Shown one piece after another: positions 4,031 to 29,885 of a stretch of 33,470 bases of DNA. The stretch's first letter is position 1. The number at the start of each line of letters is the position of its first letter. The DNA lies in contig JAUVIX010000001.1 of NCBI GenBank assembly GCA_030592565.1, positions 1-33,470 of the forward strand, given 5' to 3'. The notes below the pieces were generated by a model. The model worked only from the letters and a program-made list of their open reading frames with translations, was not told where the DNA came from and ran no database searches. This DNA is from Chlorobiota bacterium. Its GTDB lineage: Bacteria > Bacteroidota > Bacteroidia > Bacteroidales > JAADJA01. A program made the position numbers and the translations under genes.

Positions 4031-4639
4031 ATGCGCAAAATAATTGACTCATTCAACCGCTTTGTAAAGAAATACCACCTTGAATCGTTTAAAGATGTAG
4101 CCCTTTTTATGGGTATCCTTCTGTTTTTTCATTTTCTGTACAGATATTTCGCACAGGACTTTTTGGCGGTGGATTTCATAAGAAATTCAGGAAACTCTCT
4201 TGCCAGAAACGTCTTTCTGGAAAGCAAATGGGTTTTAGAGTTATTTAATGTGAATGTGACAAATTTTGACGTTTTAGATATTGACGGTAGTGTAAAAAGT
4301 AATGTTTTTTACTATGCTCCGAATAATGGTTATACATCTGTGGGGTTGGGCTGTTCGGGATTAAAACAACTATATCAATGGACTGTTCTGATGCTTCTTT
4401 ACCCAGGATCCTGGAAAAACAAACTCTGGTATATCCCTATGGGGCTTGTTGTTGTTCACCTTACCAATGTATTCAGAATATTATTAATGGTCTTCGTCAC
4501 AATAAATCTTCCTGAGCACTGGCATTTCATCCACGATTATATTGCAAGGCCGTTTTTCTATGTTGTGTTGTTTGCAATGTGGGTTTACTGGAATGAGCAT
4601 TATTATCATAAGAAGGGAAAGGAAACGGTTAAGAGTTAG
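4031..4639 (+). CDS. Exosortase/archaeosortase-family intramembrane transpeptidase, XrtF-like in size and taxon
   Basis: 202-aa polytopic membrane ORF carrying the exosortase catalytic triad context: Cys in GLGCSGLKQL, Arg in TNVFRIL, His in HFIHDYIARPFF. Its small size and Bacteroidota context resemble XrtF. Confidence 0.7.
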   Translation: MRKIIDSFNRFVKKYHLESFKDVALFMGILLFFHFLYRYFAQDFLAVDFIRNSGNSLARNVFLESKWVLELFNVNVTNFDVLDIDGSVKSNVFYYAPNNGYTSVGLGCSGLKQLYQWTVLMLLYPGSWKNKLWYIPMGLVVVHLTNVFRILLMVFVTINLPEHWHFIHDYIARPFFYVVLFAMWVYWNEHYYHKKGKETVKS

Positions 4640-15665: not shown

Positions 15666-16490
15666 TTATTGAATACATGAATACTTTGAAGGAATTTTAA
15701 AGGGAAATTTCTTAGGCTGATCAACAGTAATTTTTGAATATTTCAACTTAACATCAATGGGTGTATCCGCTGAAAGGTTATAATAAATAGTTCCGGAGAA
15801 TAGCTGATCGTTGACATCCTGAAAATCAGAGTATTCAGCTTCCAGTTTTCTGCTATTCTCAACAGTCTCCTTTATCTTCATATGTGTAATTTTGAAGGTT
15901 TCAGGATTGAGGCAGATATTCTGAATAAAAATACGGTTGGCATCATCAGTTGTCTTCACATATTTTTTAAGCTTATGTCTCCCGGCCGTTACAAGACGAT
16001 ATTCCTTACTGTCGTAGCTTGCATTAAATTTACCGTCTTCGTAATAGGTCAGGTCATTGCCAATAATCAGCGATTGCAGAACATCAAAATCCACATTGGA
16101 ATTAAGAAAATCCTTCACAAATCTGTTATCACCGAGAAAATAGGTTTTTTTAAGCCGGTTCATATATTTAATCGAATCGTTCGTAATAAGTATCCTTGCC
16201 ATTTCTATTCCAAGAGCAGGCGAAAGGCTTATCCAAATGGCGCTGTCTTTCCTTATCCTGATCTGACCCTTCAAAGAGTTCTTATTACCGTCAATGATTA
16301 AATCAAGACTAAATTTTGCAGTAATATTTTCAAACTTAAATTGATTCTCTTTCAGTTTTTCAAACAGATAATCGGCACCATACTCTTTCAACGGCTTTTT
16401 CACCACACTCCGCGTCGAGTGGCAGGATACAACCATCGTTACCAATATTGCAATTATAAAAAAGGATCTTATATTTTTTAAATAATTCAT
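15666..16490 (-). CDS. DUF4292-family lipoprotein (LolA/LolB-like fold family)
   Basis: 274 aa with lipobox MVVSC-HSTR and no acidic export signal. The core AKFSLDLIIDGNKNSLKGQIRIRKDSAIWISLSPALGIEMARILITNDSIKYMNR matches my recollection of DUF4292 proteins. The gene sits in the usual dut-TPR-DUF4292-M23 order. Confidence 0.75.
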   Translation of the reverse strand: MNYLKNIRSFFIIAILVTMVVSCHSTRSVVKKPLKEYGADYLFEKLKENQFKFENITAKFSLDLIIDGNKNSLKGQIRIRKDSAIWISLSPALGIEMARILITNDSIKYMNRLKKTYFLGDNRFVKDFLNSNVDFDVLQSLIIGNDLTYYEDGKFNASYDSKEYRLVTAGRHKLKKYVKTTDDANRIFIQNICLNPETFKITHMKIKETVENSRKLEAEYSDFQDVNDQLFSGTIYYNLSADTPIDVKLKYSKITVDQPKKFPFKIPSKYSCIQ

Positions 16491-16624: not shown

Positions 16625-18352
16625 TCATTCCACCAACTTCTTCTCCTTAACCTTCCTGTCAAGATTCTTTGATCCTCCACCACCTGTATTCTTAGCCTTT
16701 TGCCAATATTGCAATGCCTCATCTTCCCTGTCAAGCTTCCACAAGATATCGCCGTAATGTTCCAGTACATCAGCATCCTTGTCTCCGCCATTATCAAGGG
16801 CATTTTTTATTAAAAACTCAGCATCGCTGAAATTCCCTTTCATATACAAAACCCAACCGTATGTATCAAGATTAGCCGGACTATTAGGTTTCAAATCCAC
16901 CGATCTTTTAGCCATTTCGGCGGCCTTATCCAGCCTCTCATTCCGCAGGGAAAGATAGTAGGCATAGTTGTTTAAAACGAAGTCATTATTAGGGTTTATT
17001 TGCAAAACCTCATCATAGCATTTATCTGATTTTTGGTTATCTCCAACCTGATTATAAGCATCGCCAAGATATGTCAGAAACTGTTCCTTAAGTTGCGGAC
17101 TATTTACCACATAATTAACACCAACACTCAAAATATCAACACATTTATCCCACTCCTTTTCCACATAATAAACGCCCCCGGCAAATAGATAAGGTAAGGG
17201 CATTTCAGGAAACAGATCGATAGTGCGCAGACTCTCATCAAGCAGCGCTTCATTCTCTTCAAGCTGCGATTCTATAAACAAAAGCTGTTCCCATACGACA
17301 TATTTACTGCTGTCCATCGAAATAACTTTCCGGAACGCATTGCGGGCATCTTCAAAGCGGTTATCCTGATATAGAAGGTCACCGTATATCGACCATGATT
17401 TCGGATTCTCAGGATGTACATTTATTAAAATTTCCGCAAGCTGAAATGCCTCATCTTTATTATCTTCGTAATATTCATTGGCTGTATAGTACGAAAGCAG
17501 TATCTGAACCTTTGTGTCAATATCAAGATTCTTGTTGGAAAATCCTATTTTTAGCTCTTCAAATGATTTTTTATCTTCACCGCTTTTCTTGTAATAATCA
17601 GCCAAAGATACGTGAATATACGGATCGTCAGGATCGAGCTCTTCTATTTTATGATATGTCTCGAGTGCTTTATCGTTCATTCCATTGTTAAGATACATCT
17701 CGGCAAGAATGCCATAATAGTGGGTCTCCTTAGGATATTGAGCGACCAGCTTCTCTATTTCGGCAATAGCCTTTTCAGGCTTGTTTTGCTGTAGATAAAG
17801 ATTTTGCTTTTTCATGGAAATATCCTCAGTAATGCCAAATTTTTCTTCAAGCCGGTTAAACGTTTCGATAGCTTTATCATTCTTGCCGGCATAGATATAT
17901 GCTACTGCCAGACGATTGTAGTAGTCAGGATTGTTAGGGCTTAGTTCCAAAACTCTTTTAAAAACATCAACGGCAGCATCATACTGCTCAAAGGATTGCA
18001 ACAGGCTTCCATAAAGCAACAGATAAAATTTATTTCCGGAATTAATTTTTGTTGCCTGTCTGGCATATATCAGGGCTTCGTGTCTGTTGTTTTTAAGAAG
18101 GCTGATCTTGGCCAACTCAAACATTGAAGCTGCATCATTATTATTTATTTCAATACATTTTTTATACAGCCTTTCCGCTTCTTCAAAATTACCAGTAATA
18201 TATGCTTTGGTGGCATCGTAGTAAACAGATGTATTCTCTTTAGGCTTCCCATCCTTCTCTCCCGTTGCCTTAGATAACTTCTCTCCAGATTTACATGAGA
18301 AAATAAATAAAGTGAAAATTACTAATACTAATATTCGGAGTTTGATAATCAT
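16625..18352 (-). CDS. Tetratricopeptide-repeat lipoprotein
   Basis: 575 aa with lipobox LFIFSC-KSG. TPR-like 34-aa helical repeats run throughout (e.g. AERLYKKCIEINNNDAASMFELA, AVDVFKRVLELSPNNPDYYNRLA). Confidence 0.9.
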   Translation of the reverse strand: MIIKLRILVLVIFTLFIFSCKSGEKLSKATGEKDGKPKENTSVYYDATKAYITGNFEEAERLYKKCIEINNNDAASMFELAKISLLKNNRHEALIYARQATKINSGNKFYLLLYGSLLQSFEQYDAAVDVFKRVLELSPNNPDYYNRLAVAYIYAGKNDKAIETFNRLEEKFGITEDISMKKQNLYLQQNKPEKAIAEIEKLVAQYPKETHYYGILAEMYLNNGMNDKALETYHKIEELDPDDPYIHVSLADYYKKSGEDKKSFEELKIGFSNKNLDIDTKVQILLSYYTANEYYEDNKDEAFQLAEILINVHPENPKSWSIYGDLLYQDNRFEDARNAFRKVISMDSSKYVVWEQLLFIESQLEENEALLDESLRTIDLFPEMPLPYLFAGGVYYVEKEWDKCVDILSVGVNYVVNSPQLKEQFLTYLGDAYNQVGDNQKSDKCYDEVLQINPNNDFVLNNYAYYLSLRNERLDKAAEMAKRSVDLKPNSPANLDTYGWVLYMKGNFSDAEFLIKNALDNGGDKDADVLEHYGDILWKLDREDEALQYWQKAKNTGGGGSKNLDRKVKEKKLVE

Positions 18353-19275: not shown

Positions 19276-20427
19276 ATGAAAACAGTAACTTCAATTTTTT
19301 TAACGACTCTTTTGAGCATTGTTTTATTAAATCAAACAGGGAATGCTCAATGCATCTACTGCAATTCAAACACTATAGGCGACTCATCAAGTGCTATTGG
19401 TGCTGAAAATATCTCCACAGGGGCATATTCTTTGGCCTCGGGTTTCCAAAATGAAGCAACAGGCAAATTCTCTTTTGCAGGTGGCGAAGAATCAGTTGCT
19501 TCACAAAAATGGGCATTTGCTTATGGAGAAAGAGCTATTGCCAATGGATTTAGGAGTTTTGCGCAAGGAATGGATGTGGTTGCATTTGGCGGGAACTCAG
19601 TCGCCATTGGAAGGTATGTCAAGACAAACACCAGCGATGCGATGGTAATAGGTTATGGTGTTGATATTGACAATTATCTTACAAATAGTATTAATGGGTC
19701 ATTAATGATTGGATTTAACAGTGATATCCCTACTTTTTTCATTGAGTCTGCTTCAGGTGCTGGAACATTTGGAAAAGTGGGGATTGGTACATCTGACCCG
19801 TCAAAAATGCTTGAAGTGAATGGAACATTTAAAGTTAATCAGGGATCCTATATGAGTACTATTAATTTAGATGATTCCGATATTAGATACATAAACCAAT
19901 TAAGTGGAAATGATGGGTTAAAATTTAAAGGAAAAACGCTTTTAACAAATACCCAGATGATTTTAACGGAAGAAGGAAAACTGGGAATCGGAGTAGATGC
20001 TCCTGATGCAAAATTGCAGGTTAACGGAAATATTTTTATTGATGACGCTAATTCAGGATTGATATTAAAATCCCCAGACGGACAATGCTGGAAAGGAACA
20101 ATTGACGATAATGGCAGCTTTACTTTTGAAAATATTGATTGCAATTTGGTAACCGGAAACAATGAAGATTCGGGGATATCACAACAACAAACAGCCCATA
20201 TATTCCCAAATCCTGCAGGGAATAAGATCTATATTGAAATTCCTGTCGGGCTACAACAAACCTATATGGCACTATACAATGAGCAGGGTATTTTGTTACA
20301 AAGCAAAGATTTGCAGGAAGGGAGAAATGCGGTTTCTCTCAAGAAAATTCAGAGTGGAATTATAGTTGTGAAAATTTTTAATGTAACAGGGGAATTGGTT
20401 TCGACCGAAAAGGTGATGCACCGATAA
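19276..20427 (+). CDS. Secreted T9SS cargo protein with YadA-head-like / tail-fibre-like repeats and a type A C-terminal sorting domain
   Basis: 383 aa with a signal peptide (NQTGNA-QC). It has degenerate SxAxG-type repeats (SSSAIGAENISTGAYSLASGFQNEATGKFSFAGG...GNSVAIG) and GKVGIGTSDPSKMLEVNG / GKLGIGVDAPDAKLQVNG motifs. The C-terminal ~80 aa (IFPNPAGNKIYIEIP...GIIVVKIFNVTGELVSTEKVM) look like a Por_Secre_tail domain. Confidence 0.8.
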   Translation: MKTVTSIFLTTLLSIVLLNQTGNAQCIYCNSNTIGDSSSAIGAENISTGAYSLASGFQNEATGKFSFAGGEESVASQKWAFAYGERAIANGFRSFAQGMDVVAFGGNSVAIGRYVKTNTSDAMVIGYGVDIDNYLTNSINGSLMIGFNSDIPTFFIESASGAGTFGKVGIGTSDPSKMLEVNGTFKVNQGSYMSTINLDDSDIRYINQLSGNDGLKFKGKTLLTNTQMILTEEGKLGIGVDAPDAKLQVNGNIFIDDANSGLILKSPDGQCWKGTIDDNGSFTFENIDCNLVTGNNEDSGISQQQTAHIFPNPAGNKIYIEIPVGLQQTYMALYNEQGILLQSKDLQEGRNAVSLKKIQSGIIVVKIFNVTGELVSTEKVMHR

Positions 20428-20527: not shown

Positions 20528-21709
20528 TTAAAAATTCCATTTCACCCTCAAGAAAGCGAAGTTGATTTGTTGTTTTTGTGTAATGCCGGTAATGGCATTG
20601 GGAAAATCCCCTCTAAAATATTGATATATAAAGCTAAACATCAGATTATCAGATAGAGAAAAATCGAAACCCGGATTTAAAAAATAACCATTAATTTCTG
20701 GGTAATACATTCCGGCGAGAGATAAATTAAACAAAGGAGTTATTGGATACTGTATGCTTCCAAAAATATTCCAGGGCGTGAATGATAAGTATTTAGCATT
20801 CAGGTTCGATGTATAAAAAGTGGCAAAATTATTTAGTGGATTATCTTTGGGGATTTCAGTATAAAGCACCTGAGCCATAATATTCAAAGAGTTGCTAAAA
20901 GTATAATCAAGCGAAAATGTTCCGCTAAAACTGGCTTCGCGTGTAGTATCACTGTTGTCAATCGGATTAAAATATGTAGCCTCACCACGGAAACCAAGAT
21001 TTTTAATGGCACCGGCCCAGCCAAAGCCGGCAATATAATCACGCTGCTCCATCTCCCCGAGAATAAGCTGAAAGTCGTAATTCCATTTATTAATTAACCA
21101 TTTTGCAGCCACAGTCATTCGCTCCTCGTAATTGACAGAGGCAGCTACTTCGAGCGATGATGCTGCGCCGGTATAATATTGAATCCGCACGGCATCGCTA
21201 CCCGGCTTCTCTTCATAATCAAAATCGAAATAAGAATAGGTATTAAAAATATCATTAGGATTCCACACTAATGTCCGTCCCCAGTTAATGCGTTGGCGTC
21301 CGAGTTGAAAGTCCCATTTTCCGGTGCTATACTTAATATAAAGCCGATCGAGATTCATATTCAGTAAAAAGTTTTGCTCACTTAATACATTTTTATTAAG
21401 ATGTAAATATCCGGTTTCTGTTTCTATCATATCGTCATATCCGGGAATTAAAAGAACAGAATTCCCGTAAATAAAGCGTGTTCGTAGTTGGGCTACAAAC
21501 GAAAACTTTTCCGTTGGGAAGTACTCAAAATTCAGACGATTATGCAATTGATTATCAATAAGCCAGGCATTTGAAATACTATCAAAGCTGTTTGAATTCA
21601 TATACGAAATATAGCCGTTGAGTGTACATTTCCGCTGTTTTTTATCCTGAGCAGAGATATGGAATATCATCCCAAAAACTAATAACCCGAAAACAAATAT
21701 CTTTTTCAT
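20528..21709 (-). CDS. Outer-membrane beta-barrel protein (GRQ..WG motif, AlgE/DUF1302-like); last gene of the Lol-like operon
   Basis: 393 aa with a signal peptide (IFHISA-QD). Alternating-hydrophobic beta-strand pattern throughout, the motif LGRQRINWGRTLVWNPNDIF, and a C-terminal aromatic (VKWNF). The family call is tentative. Confidence 0.7.
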   Translation of the reverse strand: MKKIFVFGLLVFGMIFHISAQDKKQRKCTLNGYISYMNSNSFDSISNAWLIDNQLHNRLNFEYFPTEKFSFVAQLRTRFIYGNSVLLIPGYDDMIETETGYLHLNKNVLSEQNFLLNMNLDRLYIKYSTGKWDFQLGRQRINWGRTLVWNPNDIFNTYSYFDFDYEEKPGSDAVRIQYYTGAASSLEVAASVNYEERMTVAAKWLINKWNYDFQLILGEMEQRDYIAGFGWAGAIKNLGFRGEATYFNPIDNSDTTREASFSGTFSLDYTFSNSLNIMAQVLYTEIPKDNPLNNFATFYTSNLNAKYLSFTPWNIFGSIQYPITPLFNLSLAGMYYPEINGYFLNPGFDFSLSDNLMFSFIYQYFRGDFPNAITGITQKQQINFAFLRVKWNF

Positions 21710-21768
21710 TTGATTAATTCAATCCATTATTCCAACACCCAATCTACTATGTTAGACTATCACCACCA

Positions 21769-21831
21769 TATGTGAGAGCATCCACGCTCGGCATTACCTC
21801 ATTATGTGAGAGCGTCCACACTCGGCATTAC
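21769..21831 (-). repeat. Two 29-nt direct repeats (34-nt period), each able to form a 5-bp/UGGA-tetraloop hairpin in the sense RNA
   Basis: tatgtgagagcAtccacGctcggcattac (21769-21797) and tatgtgagagcGtccacActcggcattac (21803-21831). They lie in the 159-nt gap between the ATPase stop and the barrel ATG. On the minus strand the hairpins read GAGCG-UGGA-UGCUC and GAGUG-UGGA-CGCUC. Confidence 0.75.
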
Positions 21832-21868
21832 AAAAACTCAACTTATCTATCCCTCCAACCTCATTAAG

Positions 21869-22543
21869 CTATTCAATAACCTTCCCATCTTCCAACTTAA
21901 TCAGTCTGCGCGCCTTTTTCATTACACGAACATCGTGAGTAGAAAATATGAAGGTAATATTTTCCTCTCTGTTTAATTGCTCCATAATATCCAGAAGATT
22001 CTCAGTTGACTTTGAATCCAGGTTAGCAGTAGGCTCATCAGCAAGGATAAATTTGGGTTTCGAGGCAAGTGCACGTGCCACGGCCACTCTTTGCTGTTGC
22101 CCGCCGGAAAGTTTAGCAGGACGCACTTTGGCACGATCTCCAATACCTACTGACTCAAGCAAAGCCATTGATCTTTCTTCCCGTTCCTTTTTTGACCGCC
22201 CCTGCAGGTGCATAACAAACTCTACATTTTCGCGTGCAGTAAGTACCGGAATCAGGTTGTATGCCTGAAACACAAAACCAATATTATTCATCCGGAAATC
22301 AGTTAACTTCGATTCTTTTAAATCTCCAATATTTACTCCATCTATGATGATTTCGCCACTACTTGGAGAATCCAGACCGCCAAGAAGATTTAATAATGTG
22401 GTCTTCCCACAGCCGGAAGGCCCTACAATTGCCGAAAACTCACCTTCTTTAAAACTCAGATTTATATTATTTACAGCATGAACAGCAATTTCACTGTTTT
22501 CGTTATAAATCTTATTCAAATTTTTTAACTTAATAATACTCAT
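21869..22543 (-). CDS. ABC transporter ATP-binding protein, LolD/MacB-type
   Basis: 224 aa with Walker A GPSGCGKTT, signature LSGGQQQRVAVARAL, Walker B FILADEPT and H-loop STHD. Confidence 0.95.
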   Translation of the reverse strand: MSIIKLKNLNKIYNENSEIAVHAVNNINLSFKEGEFSAIVGPSGCGKTTLLNLLGGLDSPSSGEIIIDGVNIGDLKESKLTDFRMNNIGFVFQAYNLIPVLTARENVEFVMHLQGRSKKEREERSMALLESVGIGDRAKVRPAKLSGGQQQRVAVARALASKPKFILADEPTANLDSKSTENLLDIMEQLNREENITFIFSTHDVRVMKKARRLIKLEDGKVIE

Positions 22544-22579
22544 TTTATCTTGTCTTTTTCAGTTGTTTCAAAATATTAA

Positions 22580-23998
22580 TTACTCTTTACGTATAGCCTC
22601 GGCCGGTTTAAGTCGTATGGCATGAAAAGCCGGATATATTGACGCGAGGATACCGGTCAAAATTACCATTAATGTTACTTTTACATAACTTTGAAAGTCC
22701 ACAGTTGGATAAATCATTGTCGGGTATCCAATGGCTTCAAGCCCATCGCTGAAAGAGCTAAGGTCAATCCCAAAATGAAACAAGATTGAAATCGCAATCC
22801 AGCTCAGAAAAATTCCAATTACACCACCGGTCAGAGATAGAAAAACCGTTTCGAAAAGAATCATAAGAAATACCCGTTTGCGGTTCATACCAATGGCAAT
22901 TAGCATACCCAATTCGCGCACCCGCTCAAGTACCACCATTAACATTGTGTTTACAATACCAAAACCGAGAGCCAACAAAATAATTCCCACAAAAAGGTAA
23001 AGCATTAAATTTAGCCAGGAGGCCATCATGGCGAGTTCAGGCGAAAGGTTTTCCCATTCAGAAACATTCAATCCGGTTTCAGCAATAGCTTGTAATTGCT
23101 TTTTATATTGGCTATAAACATCGACTCCCAGTTTTTGGGTCATTTTTTCCTCAAATTCATCATATGTAAATTCGTCCTCCGATTTTAACGACATCAGGGC
23201 TTTATACATTTCGTCAGGAATAGAGTCATTACGTGCTTTAAGCAATGCCTTATCATCAATTGTAAAATGGGTATATTTCTTTTTCAGCACCTGGCATATT
23301 TCACTTGTCTGCATCATATCTTCCATCAGGATAGCGATTTCGTGGGCTTCATTATCAGCAAATCCAAAAACTTTTGCAGCATCATCATAACAGATAATAA
23401 CATTCATCTCATCGTAAGTGGAATTTTGAGTTTGGAAGATGCCAACTACCCTAAAAACTTCGCGTATTGATTGCCCGTTAATATCAACCGTATTAATCAT
23501 CAGTTTACTACGCACATGGACTTTAAGCTTTTCAGCCATTTTTTGTCCAATAAGTATTGGGTTCCTCTTTATACCTTCAAAATATTTACTTGTAGAATCA
23601 ACTAAATGCTTATATAGTTGAGTAACTTTCTTTTCATTATCAGGTTCAACGGCAATAAGTACAGCTCCGGAAGCTGAACGATTAGAGCTTATCATAACTT
23701 CAGCCTTAAACCGTTTGCTAACTGCTTCTACATTGGGCATGCGGGCAATATCCTGAATGATTTCGTTACTGTTTTCAATAACAAACTCTATTTCATCATT
23801 TTCCATAAAAGCTGCCTGATGCAATTGCAATGAAGATACTTCAATTTGAATGGCATCATCAAGCCTGCCCAGTAACATTCCATTCATAAGTGCTACAGCC
23901 ACAATGCCACTGAGGAGCCCAAAGCAGATGGCCATTATCACAACCAGGCTTCTTACTTTGCTACGCCATATATTCTTCCATGCTATTGATAGTATCAT
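22580..23998 (-). CDS. ABC transporter permease, FtsX/MacB (type VII) family, LolC/E-like, copy 2
   Basis: 472 aa. The N-terminus is SIAWKNIWRSKVRS plus TM1. A long extracytoplasmic domain follows, then three C-terminal TMs carrying the FtsX motif (VLERVRELGMLIAIGMNRKRV). Confidence 0.9.
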   Translation of the reverse strand: MILSIAWKNIWRSKVRSLVVIMAICFGLLSGIVAVALMNGMLLGRLDDAIQIEVSSLQLHQAAFMENDEIEFVIENSNEIIQDIARMPNVEAVSKRFKAEVMISSNRSASGAVLIAVEPDNEKKVTQLYKHLVDSTSKYFEGIKRNPILIGQKMAEKLKVHVRSKLMINTVDINGQSIREVFRVVGIFQTQNSTYDEMNVIICYDDAAKVFGFADNEAHEIAILMEDMMQTSEICQVLKKKYTHFTIDDKALLKARNDSIPDEMYKALMSLKSEDEFTYDEFEEKMTQKLGVDVYSQYKKQLQAIAETGLNVSEWENLSPELAMMASWLNLMLYLFVGIILLALGFGIVNTMLMVVLERVRELGMLIAIGMNRKRVFLMILFETVFLSLTGGVIGIFLSWIAISILFHFGIDLSSFSDGLEAIGYPTMIYPTVDFQSYVKVTLMVILTGILASIYPAFHAIRLKPAEAIRKE

Positions 23999-24003
23999 AT
24001 AAA

Positions 24004-25224
24004 TTAAGAATGAAGTGCGTTAATAATTTTGAAACTTGATATTTTTATAAGTGAGTAAATGACAGCGATTATCAATAATGTCAAAACTACCCAAAATTGA
24101 TTTATAAAAATTCCGAAATCATTTGAAAATGCAAGCACCGGTTCAATGCCGAACTGTTCGTAAACATCAGCCATTTCACCATCTAAACGAATTGGTTTAC
24201 GGTAATAATAAGCAACAATAAAAGAGCTTAAAAGGGCTCCGGTAAGGGCTCCAACAAAACCAAGAAAAATAGTTTCTAACAGTACGACCAATGCAAGATA
24301 GTATCTGTGCATCCCAAGAGCCACCATTACACCAAATTCCTTTTTCCGTTCGGCAGTCATCATAATGATGGTGCCAAGAATACCGAAAAAAATCACTATA
24401 TAAAGAATAGCTAACATTATGATTCCACTACCATTATCGCTATCAATTTGTTGCTTAAGCTCCTTATTCATTTCAGTCCAACTCAGGGCTACCAAATGTT
24501 CAGGATTTAGGAGTTCTCTGACTTTGGGCAGAACATCTTCAATGTCACCTTTGCTTTTTATATTGACAACCATTGAAGTCAGCATTCCCTCAGCACCATA
24601 AAACTGTTGCACTTTCTTTAGCGAGCCTATAATCAAAGCCTTATCCAGTTTAGGGTTAGGGATTTTTGCAATTCCACGCACAGGAAACACATCGGCAGCC
24701 GTTACCCCGTGATATCCCTGGCTAAGTAACACAATGGTATCTCCCACATTAATATTAAGATAGGAGGCCAGACGCTGTGAAAGCAAGACTCCATCATCAT
24801 CTTTTTCAAGAAAACGGCCTTTTACAACCTTATGTGATATTTGTGTCATTTGATCATCAAGTGCCGGGTCAACTCCCTGAAAGAAAGCCCCTTTAGTTTT
24901 GTTTCCACTGGAAATAAGCGCAAAGGATTCCAATCTTGGAAGAACGCTGTGAACTCCTTCTACGCCGATAATCTTTTCGCGCAAACCAATCGAATCAAGC
25001 ATCAGGTCATCGATAGTTTTATCCTTCCAGTAAGCTTTGTCCTGCACCTGAATAAATCCTGAATATTGACGCACGGCACTATCTATCATGTGATCGTATG
25101 TGCCAAGCTGCATGGAGCGCATCACTACCCCAAAGATTACAGCAAACATTAATGATGATGCCGTAATAATTGTTCTCCGTTTATTGCGCCAGACATTGCG
25201 CCAGGCAAGTTTTACTATTTCCAT
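24004..25224 (-). CDS. ABC transporter permease, FtsX/MacB (type VII) family, LolC/E-like, copy 1
   Basis: 406 aa. The N-terminus is LAWRNVWRNKRRT plus TM1. A periplasmic domain follows, then the FtsX C-terminal TMs (TAERKKEFGVMVALGMHRYYL). Confidence 0.9.
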   Translation of the reverse strand: MEIVKLAWRNVWRNKRRTIITASSLMFAVIFGVVMRSMQLGTYDHMIDSAVRQYSGFIQVQDKAYWKDKTIDDLMLDSIGLREKIIGVEGVHSVLPRLESFALISSGNKTKGAFFQGVDPALDDQMTQISHKVVKGRFLEKDDDGVLLSQRLASYLNINVGDTIVLLSQGYHGVTAADVFPVRGIAKIPNPKLDKALIIGSLKKVQQFYGAEGMLTSMVVNIKSKGDIEDVLPKVRELLNPEHLVALSWTEMNKELKQQIDSDNGSGIIMLAILYIVIFFGILGTIIMMTAERKKEFGVMVALGMHRYYLALVVLLETIFLGFVGALTGALLSSFIVAYYYRKPIRLDGEMADVYEQFGIEPVLAFSNDFGIFINQFWVVLTLLIIAVIYSLIKISSFKIINALHS

Positions 25225-25227
25225 ATT

Positions 25228-25992
25228 CTATCTGATTCGTTTCATGTTTTGCTGCGAGAAAAAGGAATCGTCAATAGACTGGTTAAAAACGATGTCCTTG
25301 AGAATCACAATAGTTTTATTTCCGGGATTATCCTCAGGAATAATCTCAAACCTGGAAGGTAAATTTTTTCCTCCCATTCTTATTATTTCTGACGCAATTT
25401 CTGTTTTTACCAAAAACATATCCTCGTCGTACGACTCGGTTTTCAGCGTAAAAATCCCGTCCTGACTTATCCAACTCACTTTTTTGCCCCAAATCACATC
25501 GTCATCGTCTTTTGGTTTAGATTCAATAACCCAACAATCCATCTCTCCGAATTTTTCAGTTTTGAGAATTTTATGATTGAAATTATCTACTAAATACCCT
25601 TCATTCATCATATCATCGTTGGTAAAATCGGAACCCATCCAACCCTGCGACATAGTGGAAGGAGGTAACTTAATCATACGCGAAATTTTAGGAATCCAGT
25701 TCCACATTTCTGTCTCACGTTTCATAAACACCTGTCCTTTTTCTTTTGCCGGTGCTGTAATTAAGACCAAAGAGTAATCGGTTCCTTTTGTCCACATTTT
25801 CATGCTTACACTGCGTGTCCATTTGGGTCGAACCAGTGTCATTTCCATAATTCCCTGACTGGTTTCACCATAACGCAGGTCGTTAGCTTTGCTAATAATC
25901 TCCGCGGGTGGTAAATCAGTCTTTTGCTGGATAAATAGTCCTGATATAAAAAAAGATGCTAAAATCAGACCTATGCTTTTTAACTTTCTCAT
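25228..25992 (-). CDS. Periplasmic LolA-like protein (outer-membrane lipoprotein-sorting protein family)
   Basis: 254 aa with an SPI-type signal peptide and no lipobox. The core SVSMKMWTKGTDYSLVLITAPAKEKGQVFMKRETEMWNWIPKISRMIKLPPSTMSQGWMGSDFTNDD matches the LolA_like family pattern as I recall it. Its ATG overlaps the TetR stop (ATGA). Confidence 0.8.
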   Translation of the reverse strand: MRKLKSIGLILASFFISGLFIQQKTDLPPAEIISKANDLRYGETSQGIMEMTLVRPKWTRSVSMKMWTKGTDYSLVLITAPAKEKGQVFMKRETEMWNWIPKISRMIKLPPSTMSQGWMGSDFTNDDMMNEGYLVDNFNHKILKTEKFGEMDCWVIESKPKDDDDVIWGKKVSWISQDGIFTLKTESYDEDMFLVKTEIASEIIRMGGKNLPSRFEIIPEDNPGNKTIVILKDIVFNQSIDDSFFSQQNMKRIR

Positions 25993-26570
25993 TTTTGTGT
26001 GATATATATTTGTTTAATTCGATTAACACAGTATTCTTTAGGAAATTGTTCGGGAATTAATAAGTAATTCATGCTGATTCCATCTAAAATAAAGCGTAGA
26101 AAATAGGCCTCAGCTATAGGATTTTCATACCCCAGGCGAGCCATAACCTGAGTAAATCCTTCCATTATTGGTTCTACTATTTCGTTTAACTTATCTTTGA
26201 CTAATGTAAACACTTCATTATTCATAAGAACTGAGAAATATACCATTAAGGTTTCCTGCATAGTATCTAAAACATCGAAGGTTTGCTCAATCAGCATCAT
26301 CACATTTTCTTCAGGGCTTAAGCGATTATCAATTACATACTGATCAAATACTTTGCTAAATCCATCAACCATAATCGCTATAAGCAAATCCTCCTTACTC
26401 TTAAAATAATTGTACATTAATCCTTTTGAGACCCCCGATTCCTTTGCAATTAATGCAATGGAAGCAGTATGGTAGCCTTTTTCTGAAATAACTTTCAAGG
26501 CGGCATCCATTATTAATTGCCTTTTTTTCAGCCGGATATTTTTAAACTGTTCTGATGTTCTCGGAGACAT
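25989..26570 (-). CDS. TetR/AcrR-family transcriptional regulator
   Basis: N-terminal HTH (GYHTASIALIAKESGVSKGLMYNYFKSKEDLL) followed by a helical ligand-binding domain. The track start at 26576 is a TTG, so I take the ATG at 26570 (MSPRTSEQF...). Confidence 0.9.
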   Translation of the reverse strand: MSPRTSEQFKNIRLKKRQLIMDAALKVISEKGYHTASIALIAKESGVSKGLMYNYFKSKEDLLIAIMVDGFSKVFDQYVIDNRLSPEENVMMLIEQTFDVLDTMQETLMVYFSVLMNNEVFTLVKDKLNEIVEPIMEGFTQVMARLGYENPIAEAYFLRFILDGISMNYLLIPEQFPKEYCVNRIKQIYITQK

Positions 26571-26581
26571 AACCAAAGTAT

Positions 26582-26607
26582 TTTTTGACTGAACGACCGG
26601 TCAAAAA
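26582..26607. promoter_or_regulatory. Candidate TetR operator: inverted repeat TTTTTGAC-N10-GTCAAAAA with an embedded GACCGGTC palindrome
   Basis: tttttgactgaacgaccggtcaaaaa lies 12-37 nt upstream of the TetR ATG. The arms are 26582-26589 and 26600-26607. The 8-bp perfect palindrome gaccggtc is at 26595-26602. Confidence 0.5.
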
Positions 26608-26761
26608 TAGATATTTTTTTTGATTTACAAAAAAATAATACTGTCATATATACATTTAAAAATAAGCGACCTGATAACCTATCATTAAGCGAGCAAAAAA
26701 TACATCCGCAAGACAACTAAGTGTGCCCAATTACAACAATACTAATAAGAGATAGCACATA

Positions 26762-28634: not shown

Positions 28635-29885
28635 TTAAAAAGTTGTTCTCATTGCTTCAACCGGATCGAGACGCGAAGCTGACCATGATGGAATAATTCC
28701 AGCAACCAGTCCGATAACAGCAGATACTGAAATACTGATAATTATATTGCCTGTTGTAAGTTTCAACGGAAATGGAATTATATCATAAGTGTTTGAAATT
28801 AAAATAAGTGAATAAATTATCAAAAGGCCAATCAGTCCTCCTAACAGTGAAAGAAACACCGATTCGAAAAGAAACTGAAAAAGGATAAAAAACCTTTTAG
28901 CACCTAAAGCCATCTGTATCCCTATCTGATTTGTCCGCTCTTTAACCGAAACAAACATAATATTTGCAATTCCAAATCCGCCAACCAGTAAAGAGAATCC
29001 TCCGACTACCCATCCCACCATAGCAAAAACTGCAAAAATTTCATCGAATCCCTGTGATATTATGCTAGTCTCATTTATTGCAAAATCATCTTCAGCATTG
29101 GGTTTTAGCTTTCTAACGGATCGCAAGATGCCTGTCAGTTCATCTTTCAGTTCTTCATTGCTTACCATCGGCTTTGCCATCACAATAATCGAACCTCCAA
29201 TTTTTTGCATATTCACAAAACTCCGGGCATAGTTAACAGGGATGATAACTCTGTCGTCATTAGTATTGCCAAACATATCATCACCTTGCTTTTTCATCAG
29301 CCCGATAACTTTCAGCTTACTTCCGAATATTTTTATTGTACGGCCAATGGGATTAAGTCCTTCGTAAAGATTTTCGGATATCTCTGCACCGATAATCGCA
29401 ACATTTCTTCCGGCTTGCGACTCCAAAAGCGTAAAATAGCGTCCATCTTTAAGGTCGAAAGGCATAACATAGTCATAATCATGTGAAACTGCAAGCACTC
29501 CTACATCCTCAATGCTGTTACTTTTATATTTTACTGTGCGGCTGATTCCAAACAGAAAAGCACTTTTTTCGGATGCTGTACTTCGTTTTTGTATTTGCTT
29601 CATATCCCTTAATGACGGCTCAGGCCGCTTCATTATCTTCCACCAGGCAACATTTCCATCCATTATCCATGGCCATTTCTGAATAAAAAGGACATTACTT
29701 CCAAGACTATTAATACTTGATCGGACTGCAATCTCCATAGAATCGAAGATTGTTAATACAGAGATAACAGAGAATATCCCGATAGTAATACCTAGCAATG
29801 AGAGTAGCGTCCTAACCCTATTTACCACTATCGATTGTAGTGCAAATCGATAGCTTTCTCTGAATAATTTTAAAAATACCAGCAT
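28635..29885 (-). CDS. ABC transporter permease, MacB/FtsX family, with no adjacent ATPase
   Basis: 416 aa. The N-terminus is ALQSIVVNRVRTLLSLLGITIGIFSV. A MacB-type periplasmic domain follows, then the FtsX C-terminal TMs (VKERTNQIGIQMALGAKRFFI). Confidence 0.9.
   Translation of the reverse strand: MLVFLKLFRESYRFALQSIVVNRVRTLLSLLGITIGIFSVISVLTIFDSMEIAVRSSINSLGSNVLFIQKWPWIMDGNVAWWKIMKRPEPSLRDMKQIQKRSTASEKSAFLFGISRTVKYKSNSIEDVGVLAVSHDYDYVMPFDLKDGRYFTLLESQAGRNVAIIGAEISENLYEGLNPIGRTIKIFGSKLKVIGLMKKQGDDMFGNTNDDRVIIPVNYARSFVNMQKIGGSIIVMAKPMVSNEELKDELTGILRSVRKLKPNAEDDFAINETSIISQGFDEIFAVFAMVGWVVGGFSLLVGGFGIANIMFVSVKERTNQIGIQMALGAKRFFILFQFLFESVFLSLLGGLIGLLIIYSLILISNTYDIIPFPLKLTTGNIIISISVSAVIGLVAGIIPSWSASRLDPVEAMRTTF

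What the first reader, a model, noticed from the sequence alone, without database searches (positions are those of the whole stretch)
20528..26607. TetR-controlled Lol-like envelope module: LolA-like carrier, two LolC/E-like permeases, LolD-like ATPase and an OM beta-barrel, with no MFP and no TolC
Seen in the sequence: six co-directional minus-strand genes with gaps of -4 (ATGA overlap), 3, 5, 36 and 159 nt. In order they are a TetR regulator, a signal-peptide-bearing LolA-like protein without a lipobox, two paralogous FtsX/MacB-type permeases (406 and 472 aa, each with a large extracytoplasmic domain after TM1), an ATPase with canonical Walker/signature motifs, and a 393-aa barrel ending in WNF with a GRQRINWG motif. 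A palindromic operator candidate sits just upstream of the TetR ATG. Established knowledge: type VII ABC systems either drive tripartite efflux through a membrane-fusion protein and TolC (MacAB-TolC) or hand lipoproteins to soluble LolA (LolCDE). LolA_like (PF17131-type) proteins are often encoded beside RND or FtsX permeases. Proteobacteria have an analogous DUF1329 (LolA-like) + DUF1302 (barrel) + RND module whose substrate is still unclear. Inference: this locus has no MFP or TolC, but it does have a soluble carrier and a dedicated barrel. That suggests a ligand-inducible extract-shuttle-insert or export route for a hydrophobic molecule such as a lipid, lipoprotein or amphiphilic metabolite, separate from housekeeping Lol. 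To my knowledge no such system has been functionally described in Bacteroidota.
Basis: partly seen in the sequence, partly recalled or inferred. Interest (0 to 1): 0.75.

Follow-up and report, generated by a model that had tools for sequence, protein, structure and literature searches.

The report
Inducible ABC, LolA-like, barrel export module
An uncultured Bacteroidales genome carries a six-gene operon (a repressor, a periplasmic lipid-carrier-like protein, an ABC pump and an outer-membrane barrel) that is conserved in hundreds of species and looks like a way to push a greasy molecule out of the cell without the usual adaptor and TolC duct, but its cargo is still unknown.

Summary
Six co-directional minus-strand genes encode a TetR, a lipobox-free LolA_like protein, two paralogous MacB/LolC-type permeases, an ABC ATPase and a roughly 18-stranded barrel. 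The spacers are as stated and there is a palindrome upstream of tetR. The set is a real unit: 59 of 61 related loci with enough upstream DNA keep LolA-like, FtsX, FtsX, ATPase and barrel in that order. At least 596 species-representative genomes encode the barrel. The palindrome is a footprinted operator (consensus TGACTGAACGTTCAGTCA). All 49 matches in 1.33 Mb of related loci lie at tetR starts.

The barrel has no Pfam hit, but it is a remote homologue of DUF1302 barrels (hhalign 95.7%). The LolA-like protein's best solved relative is 9tp6, which matches P. gingivalis PG1179. So this locus is the ABC-driven counterpart of the RND/MMPL + DUF1329/LolA_like + DUF1302 modules: AmeABCD, which acts in monoterpene efflux, and PG1178-81, which is induced by heme or iron limitation.

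It is not LolCDE (scores are below the cut-offs, and LolB1 is encoded elsewhere on the contig). It is not MacAB-TolC (no MFP or OMF nearby). The most likely function is inducible export of a hydrophobic or amphiphilic molecule. The cargo and the direction of transport are untested. I rate it a new variant of a known but poorly understood kind.

The parts
26586..26603 (.). TetR operator: an 18-bp imperfect palindrome, TGACCGGTCGTTCAGTCA on the coding strand, inside the longer inverted repeat 26582-26607
   Evidence: It is the single match in the window to the consensus TGACTGAACGTTCAGTCA (3 mismatches; 0.02 expected by chance). In 1.33 Mb of related loci, all 49 matches lie within -200 to +150 of the tetR ORF start, and 41 of 48 loci have a site. 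The inverted repeat is confirmed.
26602..26631 (-). Candidate Bacteroidota-type promoter: TTTG (26631-26628), 18 nt, TATTTTTG (26609-26602). The second box overlaps the left arm of the operator.
   Evidence: Read directly from the sequence. The TTTG / TAnnTTTG consensus is from my own knowledge of Bacteroides promoters and was not tested. The sigma-70-type scan is not informative (27 sites found against 23 expected).
25989..26570 (-). TetR-family repressor (193 aa from the ATG at 26570; the ORF listing starts it at the TTG at 26576)
   Evidence: TetR_N 65.2 bits. The best PDB and NCBIfam relatives are Bacillus FadR acyl-CoA sensors, below the family cut-off. It overlaps the next gene by 4 nt (ATGA).
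25228..25992 (-). Periplasmic LolA_like (PF17131, also named TP_0789-like) protein, 254 aa, with a type-I signal peptide and no lipobox
   Evidence: PF17131 181.5 bits. DUF1329 scores 21.6 bits, just under its cut-off of 23.1. PDB sequence relatives are 9tp6 (E 1.5e-18), 3buu, 4z48 and 3bk5. It is 26% identical to P. gingivalis PG1179 (E 5e-22).
24004..25224 (-). Type VII ABC permease 1 (406 aa): TM1, a periplasmic MacB_PCD domain, then three FtsX transmembrane helices
   Evidence: FtsX 47.4 bits and MacB_PCD 38.6 bits. The best PDB relative is E. coli LolC, aligned over residues 81-339. lolCE scores 87.9 bits against a cut-off of 362.
22580..23998 (-). Type VII ABC permease 2 (472 aa), a paralogue of permease 1 with an extra acidic segment of about 65 aa before TM2
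   Evidence: FtsX 66.7 bits and MacB_PCD 31.2 bits. It is 22% identical to permease 1 (E 1e-27), with the insertion visible in the alignment. PDB relatives are a Streptococcus MacB-like permease, LolF, LolC, MacB and YtrF.
21869..22543 (-). ABC ATPase (224 aa) of the LolD/DevA/MacB-NBD group
   Evidence: ABC_tran 126.2 bits. LolD scores 233.9 bits (cut-off 307.75), DevA 224.1 bits and MacB 209.2 bits. Walker A (GPSGCGKTT), the signature motif (LSGGQQQR) and Walker B (ILADEPT) can be read in the translation.
21759..21826 (.). Two tandem copies of a 34-nt direct repeat inside the 159-nt ATPase-barrel spacer; role unknown
   Evidence: It is absent from the rest of the window and from 87 fetched loci. 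There is no Rfam match. Relatives have a median spacer of 25 nt.
20528..21709 (-). Outer-membrane beta-barrel (393 aa, signal peptide ...ISA|QD, about 18 strands), a remote member of the DUF1302 lineage
   Evidence: No Pfam hit. AF2 pLDDT 87.1 and pTM 0.80. Foldseek matches MOMP, chitoporin, OccD/OccAB and AlgE with TM 0.55-0.63. 8 of 34 family members hit PF06980. hhalign against Bacteroidota DUF1302 barrels gives 95.7% probability, E 9.2e-9, over 311 columns.

Best explanation
This is a TetR-autorepressed, ligand-inducible, envelope-spanning exporter for a hydrophobic or amphiphilic (probably acyl- or lipid-like) small molecule.

Regulation. The repressor binds one 18-bp palindrome that overlaps the operon promoter, and its ligand releases it. 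The operator is shown by footprinting; the repression logic is inferred.

Inner membrane. A LolCDE/MacB-type (type VII) ABC engine is formed by a heterodimer of the two paralogous permeases plus two ATPase copies. It uses ATP-driven mechanotransmission to pick the cargo up from the periplasmic face of the inner membrane. The family assignment is shown; the mechanism is inferred from the family.

Periplasm and outer membrane. The cargo passes to the soluble LolA_like protein, which delivers it to, or sits docked on, the DUF1302-like 18-strand barrel. The cargo leaves through that barrel (inferred). The LolA_like + barrel pair thus takes the place that MFP + TolC hold in MacAB-TolC.

Relation to known systems. 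The module is the ABC-powered counterpart of the RND/MMPL + DUF1329/LolA_like + DUF1302 systems (AmeABCD, PG1178-81).
For: Unit. LolA-like, FtsX, FtsX, ATPase and barrel lie on one strand in 59 of 61 related loci with at least 6 kb upstream; 48 of those also have TetR. The median ATPase-barrel spacer is 25 nt. At least 596 species-representative genomes encode the barrel.

Regulation. The operator motif is found only at tetR starts (49 of 49 matches; 41 of 48 loci) and occurs once in the window.

Engine. Both permeases hit MacB_PCD and FtsX, and their PDB relatives are LolC, LolF and MacB. The ATPase is closest to LolD, DevA and MacB.

Carrier. PF17131 181.5 bits, with solved LolA-superfamily relatives. 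It is a secreted protein with no lipobox.

Exit. The barrel model is confident and shows about 18 strands. The barrel family is homologous to the DUF1302 barrels that follow MMPL-LolA_like in Bacteroidota.

Function of relatives. Deleting AmeABCD (DUF1302 + DUF1329 + BNR + HAE3 RND) lowers monoterpene tolerance and raises Nile Red accumulation (PMC6394551). PG1178-81 is one transcription unit (PMC11018363). AlphaFold-Multimer predicts a DUF1302-DUF1329 complex with ipTM 0.84 (PMC13499233).

No MFP or OMF. None is encoded in the window or among the recurrent neighbours in 83 loci.

Cargo hints. The TetR ligand domain aligns best to Bacillus FadR. A PEMT/ICMT/DUF1295-like membrane enzyme is a seventh gene in 17 of 76 relatives, and it also sits inside an MMPL-type locus.
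Against: There is no experimental datum for any member of the ABC-type module. The cargo, the direction of transport and the physical contacts are all inferred.

The window barrel itself misses PF06980, so its DUF1302 link rests on profile-profile comparison.

The 159-nt spacer with a tandem repeat could uncouple barrel expression in this genome.

P. putida DUF1302/DUF1329 mutants are defective for growth on fatty esters. That fits uptake or processing as well as export.

An MFP/TolC partner encoded elsewhere cannot be excluded, because only 33 kb of the genome is available.

The AF2 model of the LolA-like protein was unusable (pLDDT 53.7).

The FadR-like hint is weak (74.8 bits against a cut-off of 200).
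Confidence: 0.55

Rival explanations
1. This is the first reader's reading: a specialised Lol-like trafficking route. The ABC extracts a lipoprotein or membrane lipid from the inner membrane. The soluble LolA-like protein shuttles it across the periplasm. The barrel inserts it into, or flips it across, the outer membrane. The role would be envelope building or remodelling rather than efflux.
For: The permeases are closest to LolC and LolF in the PDB, and the segment at the LolC Hook position aligns without a gap. The ATPase's best equivalog model is LolD. The carrier has a LolA-superfamily fold by homology. A comparable MacB-like + LolA-like + barrel cluster in Borrelia was interpreted in this way (PMC13078400). 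MMPL engines of the sister system are typically lipid exporters (my own knowledge). Envelope-stress genes (ECF sigma with anti-sigma, LiaF-TM, LytTR) recur nearby.
Against: The lolCE and LolD scores are far below the equivalog cut-offs (88 and 117 bits against 362; 234 against 308). Housekeeping LolB1 is encoded elsewhere on the same contig. The acceptor is an Occ/AlgE-like channel, not a LolB or Omp85 insertase. A dedicated autorepressor is more usual for conditional efflux. The one tested relative behaves as an efflux or tolerance system. So the module is probably not universal in Bacteroidota, and it cannot be their general surface-lipoprotein exporter.
Confidence: 0.17
2. An uptake system for a hydrophobic nutrient. 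The barrel admits the compound, the LolA-like protein carries it across the periplasm, and the ABC complex takes it into, or hands it to, the inner membrane.
For: P. putida DUF1302/DUF1329 mutants lose fitness on Tween 20 and butyl stearate (10.1101/2020.07.04.188060). The barrel resembles substrate-specific uptake channels (OccD/OccAB, chitoporin). The TetR resembles the catabolic regulator FadR.
Against: To my knowledge, no characterised type VII (MacB/LolC/FtsX-fold) ABC system is an importer. There is no canonical substrate-binding protein. No catabolic genes recur next to the cluster. The AmeABCD data point to export.
Confidence: 0.1
3. A mechanotransmission device in the manner of FtsEX rather than a transporter. 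The ABC complex uses ATP to switch the conformation of the LolA-like protein or the barrel, for example gating a porin or activating a periplasmic partner, without moving cargo itself.
For: FtsX-fold complexes such as FtsEX act in this way (my own knowledge). Weak FtsX-family hits appear for both permeases. A DUF1302-DUF1329 complex is predicted to be stable rather than transient.
Against: The permeases carry a full MacB_PCD (Sabre/Porter-type) periplasmic domain, as the transporters do. The same outer-membrane pair is combined with MMPL/RND transporters in sister loci, and a regulatory ATPase model does not explain that. The LolA-like fold is a hydrophobic-ligand carrier.
Confidence: 0.05

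Closest known systems
AmeABCD of Castellaniella defragrans and the proteobacterial DUF1302 + DUF1329 + BNR + HAE3-RND clusters (e.g. P. putida PP_0765/0766 with PP_2018/2019)
   Same: Both pair a periplasmic LolA-superfamily protein with a DUF1302-lineage outer-membrane barrel beside an inner-membrane engine that releases substrate on the periplasmic side. Neither has an MFP or TolC. In AmeABCD the cargo is hydrophobic and the system gives an export and tolerance phenotype. DUF1302 is modelled as an 18-strand barrel resembling Occ and AlgE channels, as is the barrel here.
   Different: The engine here is a heterodimeric type VII ABC transporter, not a proton-driven RND, and there is no BNR/COG4447 propeller. 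The barrel is about 390 aa rather than about 600 and falls outside PF06980. The carrier is a 254-aa PF17131 protein rather than a 450-aa DUF1329. The regulator is a TetR rather than a LuxR type.
Porphyromonas gingivalis PG1178-PG1181 (TetR, MMPL, LolA_like PG1179, DUF1302 'porin' PG1178) and its orthologues in Prevotella, Bacteroides zoogleoformans, Saccharicrinis and Maribellus
   Same: Same phylum and the same logic: TetR first, then the engine, the LolA_like protein and the barrel. PG1179 matches 9tp6, the best solved relative of the window's carrier. The barrels are of similar size (405-420 aa) and are homologous at profile level. A PEMT/DUF1295-like gene can be embedded in both types.
   Different: The engine is an MMPL/RND, often joined by two MdlB-type ABC half-transporters. 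The TetR proteins share only the HTH region, and the operator motif is absent there. For that reason the heme, iron and NO responsiveness of PG1178-81 cannot be transferred to this locus. PG1178-81 is itself still called an uncharacterised transport system.
LolCDE-LolA-LolB lipoprotein sorting
   Same: It has two paralogous MacB-fold permeases, a LolD-like ATPase and a soluble LolA-superfamily partner. The permeases' best PDB hits include LolC and LolF.
   Different: All three equivalog models score far below their cut-offs. The carrier is PF17131, not LolA. The acceptor is a channel-like barrel, not the lipoprotein LolB. LolB1 is encoded separately on the contig. The locus is under a dedicated repressor.
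MacAB-TolC and DevBCA-HgdD tripartite type VII ABC exporters
   Same: The permease fold (MacB_PCD + FtsX) and the ATPase subgroup are the same (MacB 209 bits, DevA 224 bits). The substrate would be taken from the periplasmic side.
   Different: No membrane-fusion protein or TolC-family duct is encoded in the window or among the recurrent neighbours of 83 loci. A LolA_like protein plus a porin-like barrel occupy their place. The NBD is a separate polypeptide and the permeases form a heterodimer.
Borrelia lp38 BBJ23-BBJ29 cluster (MacB-like ABC + LolA-like BBJ28 + Omp85-family BBJ25)
   Same: It combines a type VII ABC, a PF17131-type LolA-like protein and a dedicated outer-membrane barrel, without an MFP or TolC. 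It too is known only from computation (PMC13078400).
   Different: Its barrel is Omp85/TamA-like, not DUF1302-like. Its permease is homodimeric. It has TPR chaperones and no TetR. The phylum is different.

Membership tests
TetR-family autoregulated operon | N-terminal TetR HTH domain | tested here: met
   PF00440 65.2 bits against a cut-off of 24.
TetR-family autoregulated operon | Palindromic operator at its own promoter, conserved among orthologous loci | tested here: met
   The 18-bp palindrome occurs once in the window. All 49 of 49 matches in 1.33 Mb lie at tetR starts, and 41 of 48 loci have a site. Binding itself was not tested.
Type VII (MacB/LolC/FtsX-fold) ABC transporter | Permease with TM1, a large periplasmic MacB_PCD domain, then the FtsX three-TM bundle; a separate or fused NBD of the LolD/MacB group | tested here: met
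   Both permeases hit PF12704 and PF02687 above their cut-offs. Their PDB relatives are LolC, LolF and MacB. The ATPase's best models are LolD, DevA and MacB.
LolCDE (lipoprotein release complex) | Scores above the equivalog cut-offs of lolCE (TIGR02212) and LolD (TIGR02211) | tested here: not met
   lolCE gives 87.9 and 116.6 bits against 362.45. LolD gives 233.9 bits against 307.75.
LolCDE (lipoprotein release complex) | Partners are canonical LolA and a LolB-type lipoprotein insertase | tested here: not met
   The carrier matches PF17131 and not the LolA family. The acceptor is a beta-barrel. LolB1 (NF053559, 190.9 bits) is encoded elsewhere, at 15666-16490.
LolCDE (lipoprotein release complex) | LolC 'Hook' hairpin that recruits the carrier | tested here: inconclusive
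   Permease 1 aligns without a gap across the LolC Hook segment, but the residues are not conserved and no structure was obtained.
MacAB-TolC type tripartite pump | Cognate membrane-fusion protein and TolC-family outer-membrane factor | tested here: not met
   None among the larger ORFs of the 33.5-kb contig that were scanned. None among gene families recurring in at least 9 of 83 related loci. The rest of the genome is not available.
LolA_like / TP_0789-like (PF17131) | Match to the family model and to solved members | tested here: met
   181.5 bits against a cut-off of 30. PDB relatives are 9tp6, 3buu, 4z48 and 3bk5 with E 1.5e-18 to 3e-11. My own AF2 model was too poor to add anything.
DUF1329 (PF07044) | Score above the gathering cut-off | tested here: not met
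   21.6 bits against 23.1, over residues 150-200 only. PG1179 passes with 61.7 bits.
DUF1302 (PF06980) outer-membrane barrel | Match to the family model | tested here: not met
   The window protein has no hit even at E<=10. 8 of 34 family members hit weakly, best E 3.3e-6.
DUF1302 (PF06980) outer-membrane barrel | Homology to bona fide members, shown by collinear full-length profile alignment and the shared GRQxxxWG motif | tested here: met
   hhalign of the barrel family against five Bacteroidota barrels that carry PF06980 hits on record (two of them weak) gives 95.7% probability, E 9.2e-9, over 311 columns. The motif aligns.
DUF1302 + LolA-superfamily outer-membrane pair | Physical complex between the barrel and the LolA-like protein | not testable with these tools
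   Only single-chain prediction was available. A complex is predicted for the proteobacterial pair (ipTM 0.84; PMC13499233).

The most novel reading that the evidence does not exclude
LolA_like/DUF1329 carriers and DUF1302-lineage barrels together form a general third way across the diderm envelope, alongside MFP-TolC ducts and Lpt-type bridges. It would be a 'chaperone-plus-porin' outer half that plugs interchangeably onto ABC (this locus), MMPL/RND (PG1178-81, AmeABCD) or other engines. In these Bacteroidales it would export a so far unknown acyl-containing metabolite sensed by a FadR-like TetR.
Probability: 0.4. Interest if true: 0.75.

Novelty: new variant of a known kind. Interest (0 to 1): 0.55.

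Why it matters
Type VII ABC transporters are understood only as MFP-TolC pumps, as LolCDE, or as FtsEX-type actuators. DUF1302/DUF1329 proteins are widespread, including in ESKAPE pathogens and P. gingivalis, but have no assigned mechanism. This locus shows that the same outer-membrane pair is wired to an ABC engine in hundreds of Bacteroidota species. That argues the pair is a self-sufficient exit module whose inner-membrane engine can be swapped.

The sharply defined 18-bp operator and its cognate TetR give a direct experimental handle: a ligand screen for the inducer, and so for the cargo. The systems studied so far do not offer this.

If confirmed, it would add a third architecture for moving hydrophobic molecules across the periplasm and outer membrane. 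It would also help to interpret PG1178-81, which is strongly induced in P. gingivalis.

Tried and rejected
(1) AF2 of the LolA-like protein. The model had pLDDT 53.7 and was not used or fold-searched.

(2) Multimer modelling. A model of carrier with barrel, or carrier with permease, could not be run because only single-chain jobs are offered.

(3) Direct Pfam or PDB sequence assignment of the barrel found nothing. Profile-profile comparison with the 175-aa PG1178 fragment alone was weak (10% probability). It became convincing only with five full-length DUF1302 barrels.

(4) Transferring the heme/iron regulation of PG1178-81 to this locus. Rejected: the TetR proteins share only the HTH region, and the operator is absent from the MMPL-type loci.

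(5) General Bacteroidota surface-lipoprotein exporter. Rejected: the module is repressor-controlled and was detected in only a small fraction of the species-representative genomes scanned.

(6) The tandem repeat in the ATPase-barrel spacer as a known RNA or a dispersed repeat. There is no Rfam hit and no other copy.

(7) Sigma-70-type promoter and terminator scans were uninformative, with counts at the level of the shuffles. The only 'terminator' call at the 5' end is the operator palindrome itself.

(8) Literature searches for PF17131, TP0789, 'LolA-like' with MacB, and DUF4292 found no functional study of an ABC + LolA_like + DUF1302 module.

Full report
**1. Observation**

The six minus-strand ORFs exist exactly as described:
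- TetR, 25989-26576. The ORF listing starts it at a TTG; an in-frame ATG at 26570 is the likelier start.
- A 254-aa protein, 25228-25992.
- Two permeases, 24004-25224 (406 aa) and 22580-23998 (472 aa).
- An ATPase, 21869-22543.
- A 393-aa protein, 20528-21709, that ends in WNF and contains GRQRINWG.

The coordinates give spacers of -4, 3, 5, 36 and 159 nt.

Pfam confirms TetR_N (65 bits), LolA_like PF17131 (181.5 bits, E 1.7e-53), FtsX plus MacB_PCD in both permeases, and ABC_tran (126 bits). The two permeases are paralogues: 22% identity, E 1e-27, with an extra segment of about 65 aa before TM2 of the longer one.

The last protein has no Pfam hit even at E<=10 and no PDB sequence relative. 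An AlphaFold2 model built on 34 homologues is confident (pLDDT 87.1, pTM 0.80) and shows about 18 strands after a signal peptide. Foldseek places it with 18-strand channels: C. jejuni MOMP, chitoporins, OccD/OccAB and AlgE, with TM 0.55-0.63.

The inverted repeat TTTTTGAC-N10-GTCAAAAA lies at 26582-26607. No membrane-fusion protein or TolC-family protein was found among the window's other larger ORFs. The window is an entire 33,470-bp NCBI MAG contig.

**2. Is it a unit?**

Yes.

The barrel has 6,432 relatives at E<=0.001 in the protein collection. The best 80 are Bacteroidota MAGs, mostly Bacteroidales, plus one labelled Chlorobi.

I searched stop-to-stop ORFs of all fetched loci with the six window proteins. 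Of the 61 loci with at least 6 kb upstream of the barrel, 59 carry LolA-like, FtsX, FtsX and ATPase upstream on the same strand. Of those 59, 48 also have a detectable TetR. The two exceptions are at least partly rearranged: in L062 the LolA-like gene follows the barrel.

The median ATPase-barrel spacer is 25 nt, so co-transcription is the rule. The 159-nt spacer of this window is unusual and contains a 2 x 34-nt tandem repeat found nowhere else.

Seven relatives have three permease genes.

LolA-like N-termini in 63 of 64 relatives are type-I signal peptides without a lipobox, mostly ending in A|Q. The carrier is therefore a soluble periplasmic protein.

**3. Regulation**

- A strict TGAC-N10-GTCA search found a site at 30 of 48 tetR upstream regions.
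- With the derived consensus TGACTGAACGTTCAGTCA and up to 3 mismatches, all 49 matches in 1.33 Mb of related loci fall within -200 to +150 of the tetR ORF start.
- 41 of 48 loci have at least one site, and several have two about 60 nt apart.
- The window has exactly one match, at 26586-26603, against 0.02 expected.

The left arm overlaps a TATTTTTG box (26609-26602), and a TTTG lies 18 nt upstream. This fits the Bacteroides TTTG / TAnnTTTG promoter consensus. That consensus is from my own knowledge and was not tested here.

No second operator precedes the barrel.

The TetR's best relatives outside the HTH region are the Bacillus FadR acyl-CoA sensors: 1vi0 and 3whb at E 3e-14 over residues 16-136, and NCBIfam FadR at 74.8 bits against a cut-off of 200. 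This is a weak hint of an acyl ligand.

**4. What the parts are related to**

The LolA-like protein's best solved relative is PDB 9tp6 (E 1.5e-18), followed by 3buu, 4z48 and 3bk5.

- It is among the transcripts most strongly induced under heme or iron limitation (PMC10434189 and PMC10470040).
- It is up-regulated in a hemH mutant, and that paper still calls it an uncharacterised transport system (PMC13096392).
- It is reported as one transcription unit whose expression changes in the nitric-oxide-stress experiments (PMC11018363).

I used the published PG1179 primer as a DNA pattern and recovered a contig fragment, L084. Its 263-aa ORF is letter-for-letter the aligned part of 9tp6. So the sequence of PDB entry 9tp6 matches PG1179. 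PG1179 is 26% identical to the window protein (E 5e-22). It hits both PF17131 (229 bits) and DUF1329 (61.7 bits). The first 175 residues of PG1178 hit DUF1302 above the cut-off (36.9 bits against 23.2).

I then fetched full loci for five orthologues: P. macacae, Maribellus comscasis, Bacteroides zoogleoformans, Saccharicrinis fermentans and one further 7.4-Mb genome. Each carries a LolA_like gene followed by a 405-420-aa barrel with a PF06980 hit on record, and an MMPL gene nearby. In three of them the MMPL gene lies immediately upstream of the LolA_like gene.

A profile of the window's barrel family aligns with a profile of these five barrels over 311 columns, nearly end to end, at 95.7% probability and E 9.2e-9. 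The GRQRINWG motif aligns with GRQxVIWG. In addition, 8 of 34 members of the window's family hit PF06980 weakly.

The barrel is therefore a divergent member of the DUF1302 lineage.

**5. What the relatives do**

The only functional test of such a module is AmeABCD of Castellaniella defragrans (DUF1302, DUF1329, a BNR protein and an HAE3 RND). Its deletion lowers monoterpene tolerance and increases Nile Red accumulation (PMC6394551).

In Shewanella, Kangiella and Pseudomonas the four genes are cofit, and 'export of a cell wall component' was proposed (10.1101/072470). In P. putida, the DUF1302 and DUF1329 genes matter for growth on Tween 20 and butyl stearate (10.1101/2020.07.04.188060).

A 2026 study models DUF1302 as an 18-strand barrel resembling Occ and AlgE channels. 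It predicts a DUF1302-DUF1329 complex with ipTM 0.84 (PMC13499233).

A Borrelia plasmid cluster combining a MacB-like ABC, a LolA-like protein and an Omp85 barrel has been described by computation only (PMC13078400). It was the only paper found that holds both 'LolA-like' and 'MacB'.

**6. Mechanism proposed**

Shown:
- A conserved operon.
- A conserved operator at its promoter.
- A heterodimeric type VII ABC engine.
- A secreted LolA-superfamily protein.
- A DUF1302-lineage barrel.
- No MFP or OMF encoded locally.

Inferred:
- The TetR represses the operon until a hydrophobic ligand accumulates.
- The ABC complex extracts that ligand, or a related molecule, from the periplasmic face of the inner membrane. 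All characterised MacB/LolC-fold transporters work this way (my own knowledge).
- The complex hands the molecule to the LolA-like protein.
- The LolA-like protein delivers it to, or is docked on, the barrel, through which it exits.

I put 0.55 on this export model.

The cargo class is open. The pointers are weak but point the same way:
- The FadR-like TetR.
- A PEMT/ICMT/DUF1295-like membrane enzyme. It is a seventh gene directly after the barrel in 17 of 76 relatives. It lies between TetR and the carrier in a Chlorobi MAG. It lies between the LolA_like and DUF1302 genes in the Maribellus MMPL-type locus.
- Many invariant Arg, Asp and Asn residues in the first strands and in the 140-170 loop of the barrel.

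Together these suggest an acyl- or lipid-like molecule, possibly carboxylated.

**7. Rivals**

This is possible, but:
- The lolCE and LolD models score far below their equivalog cut-offs.
- LolB1 is encoded separately on the contig (NF053559, 190.9 bits against a cut-off of 50).
- The acceptor is a channel-like barrel.
- The tested relative behaves as an efflux system.

(b) Uptake of hydrophobic nutrients. The P. putida phenotypes and the Occ-like fold fit this, but it is unprecedented for this ABC fold and no catabolic genes recur nearby.

(c) An FtsEX-like actuator. This is hard to reconcile with the same outer-membrane pair being coupled to MMPL transporters.

The regulation of PG1178-81 by heme or iron cannot be transferred. 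The two TetR proteins share only the HTH region, and the operator is absent from the MMPL-type loci.

**8. Novelty and verdict**

'Lol-like' is a functional resemblance, not membership. Bacteroidota already have a studied, though still unexplained, sister operon with a solved carrier structure.

In the literature available to me I found no functional description of the ABC + LolA_like + DUF1302-type module.

I class it as a new variant of a known, poorly understood kind, with interest 0.55. Its value lies in showing that the LolA_like + DUF1302 pair is an engine-independent exit module. It also supplies a clean TetR and operator handle for finding the cargo.

**Limits**

There is no experimental evidence for any member of the ABC-type module. 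Only 33 kb of this genome is available. No multimer modelling was possible. My AF2 model of the carrier was unusable (pLDDT 53.7).

Noticed in passing
window 15666-16490 (-), with 16625-18352 (-): The DUF4292 protein scores 190.9 bits on NCBIfam LolB1_Flavo (cut-off 50). The housekeeping Bacteroidota LolB1 insertase is therefore on the same contig, next to a large TPR protein.
   Followed up: partly
window 28635-29885 (-): A third MacB_PCD + FtsX permease (126.8 bits on MacB_PCD; its best NCBIfam model is MacB). It stands alone beside recJ, with no adjacent ATPase, MFP or carrier.
   Followed up: partly
window 21759-21826: Two tandem copies of a 34-nt direct repeat (82% identical) in the ATPase-barrel spacer. 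They are absent from the rest of the window and from 87 related loci, and have no Rfam match. Relatives have a median spacer of 25 nt.
   Followed up: yes
L023, L025, L027, L041, L043-L046, L050, L061, L064, L068, L069, L072, L074, L075, L078 (just downstream of the barrel); L003 1847-2536; L089 8813-9379: A PEMT/ICMT/DUF1295-like polytopic membrane protein is a recurrent extra gene of the module. It directly follows the barrel in 17 of 76 relatives. It also sits inside a Chlorobi ABC-type locus and inside the Maribellus MMPL-type locus. It may be a cargo-modifying enzyme.
   Followed up: partly
L088-L092 (MMPL-type sister loci): The MMPL-LolA_like-DUF1302 loci of cultured Bacteroidota often include SAM-dependent methyltransferases, two MdlB-type ABC half-transporters, FeoB and cation-efflux genes. 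This fits the iron/heme-limitation induction reported for P. gingivalis and Prevotella.
   Followed up: no
L003, L007, L008, L018, L024, L030, L042: These relatives carry three FtsX-type permease genes instead of two. The extra one resembles permease 1.
   Followed up: no
window 22580-23998 (-), residues ~245-320: Permease 2 has an acidic insertion of about 65 aa between the periplasmic domain and TM2 that permease 1 lacks. From their ORF sizes, some relatives have it and others do not.
   Followed up: no
about 29 related loci, upstream and divergent (e.g. L041 4331-4858, L046 3121-4233, L043 453-1481): An ECF sigma factor, a putative anti-sigma protein with no Pfam hit, and an OMP_b-brl_2 protein recur divergently upstream of tetR. 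LytTR response regulators, a histidine kinase and LiaF-TM proteins recur downstream. This may reflect an envelope-stress neighbourhood or only shared ancestry of the genomes.
   Followed up: partly
window 5547-8039 (-): An 830-aa fusion of a Mur ligase domain with a complete alanine racemase.
   Followed up: no
window 19276-20427 (+) and 4031-4639 (+): A T9SS C-terminal-sorting-domain protein with YadA-head repeats lies directly downstream of the barrel on the opposite strand. Elsewhere in the window there is a short (202-aa) exosortase-like protein.
   Followed up: no
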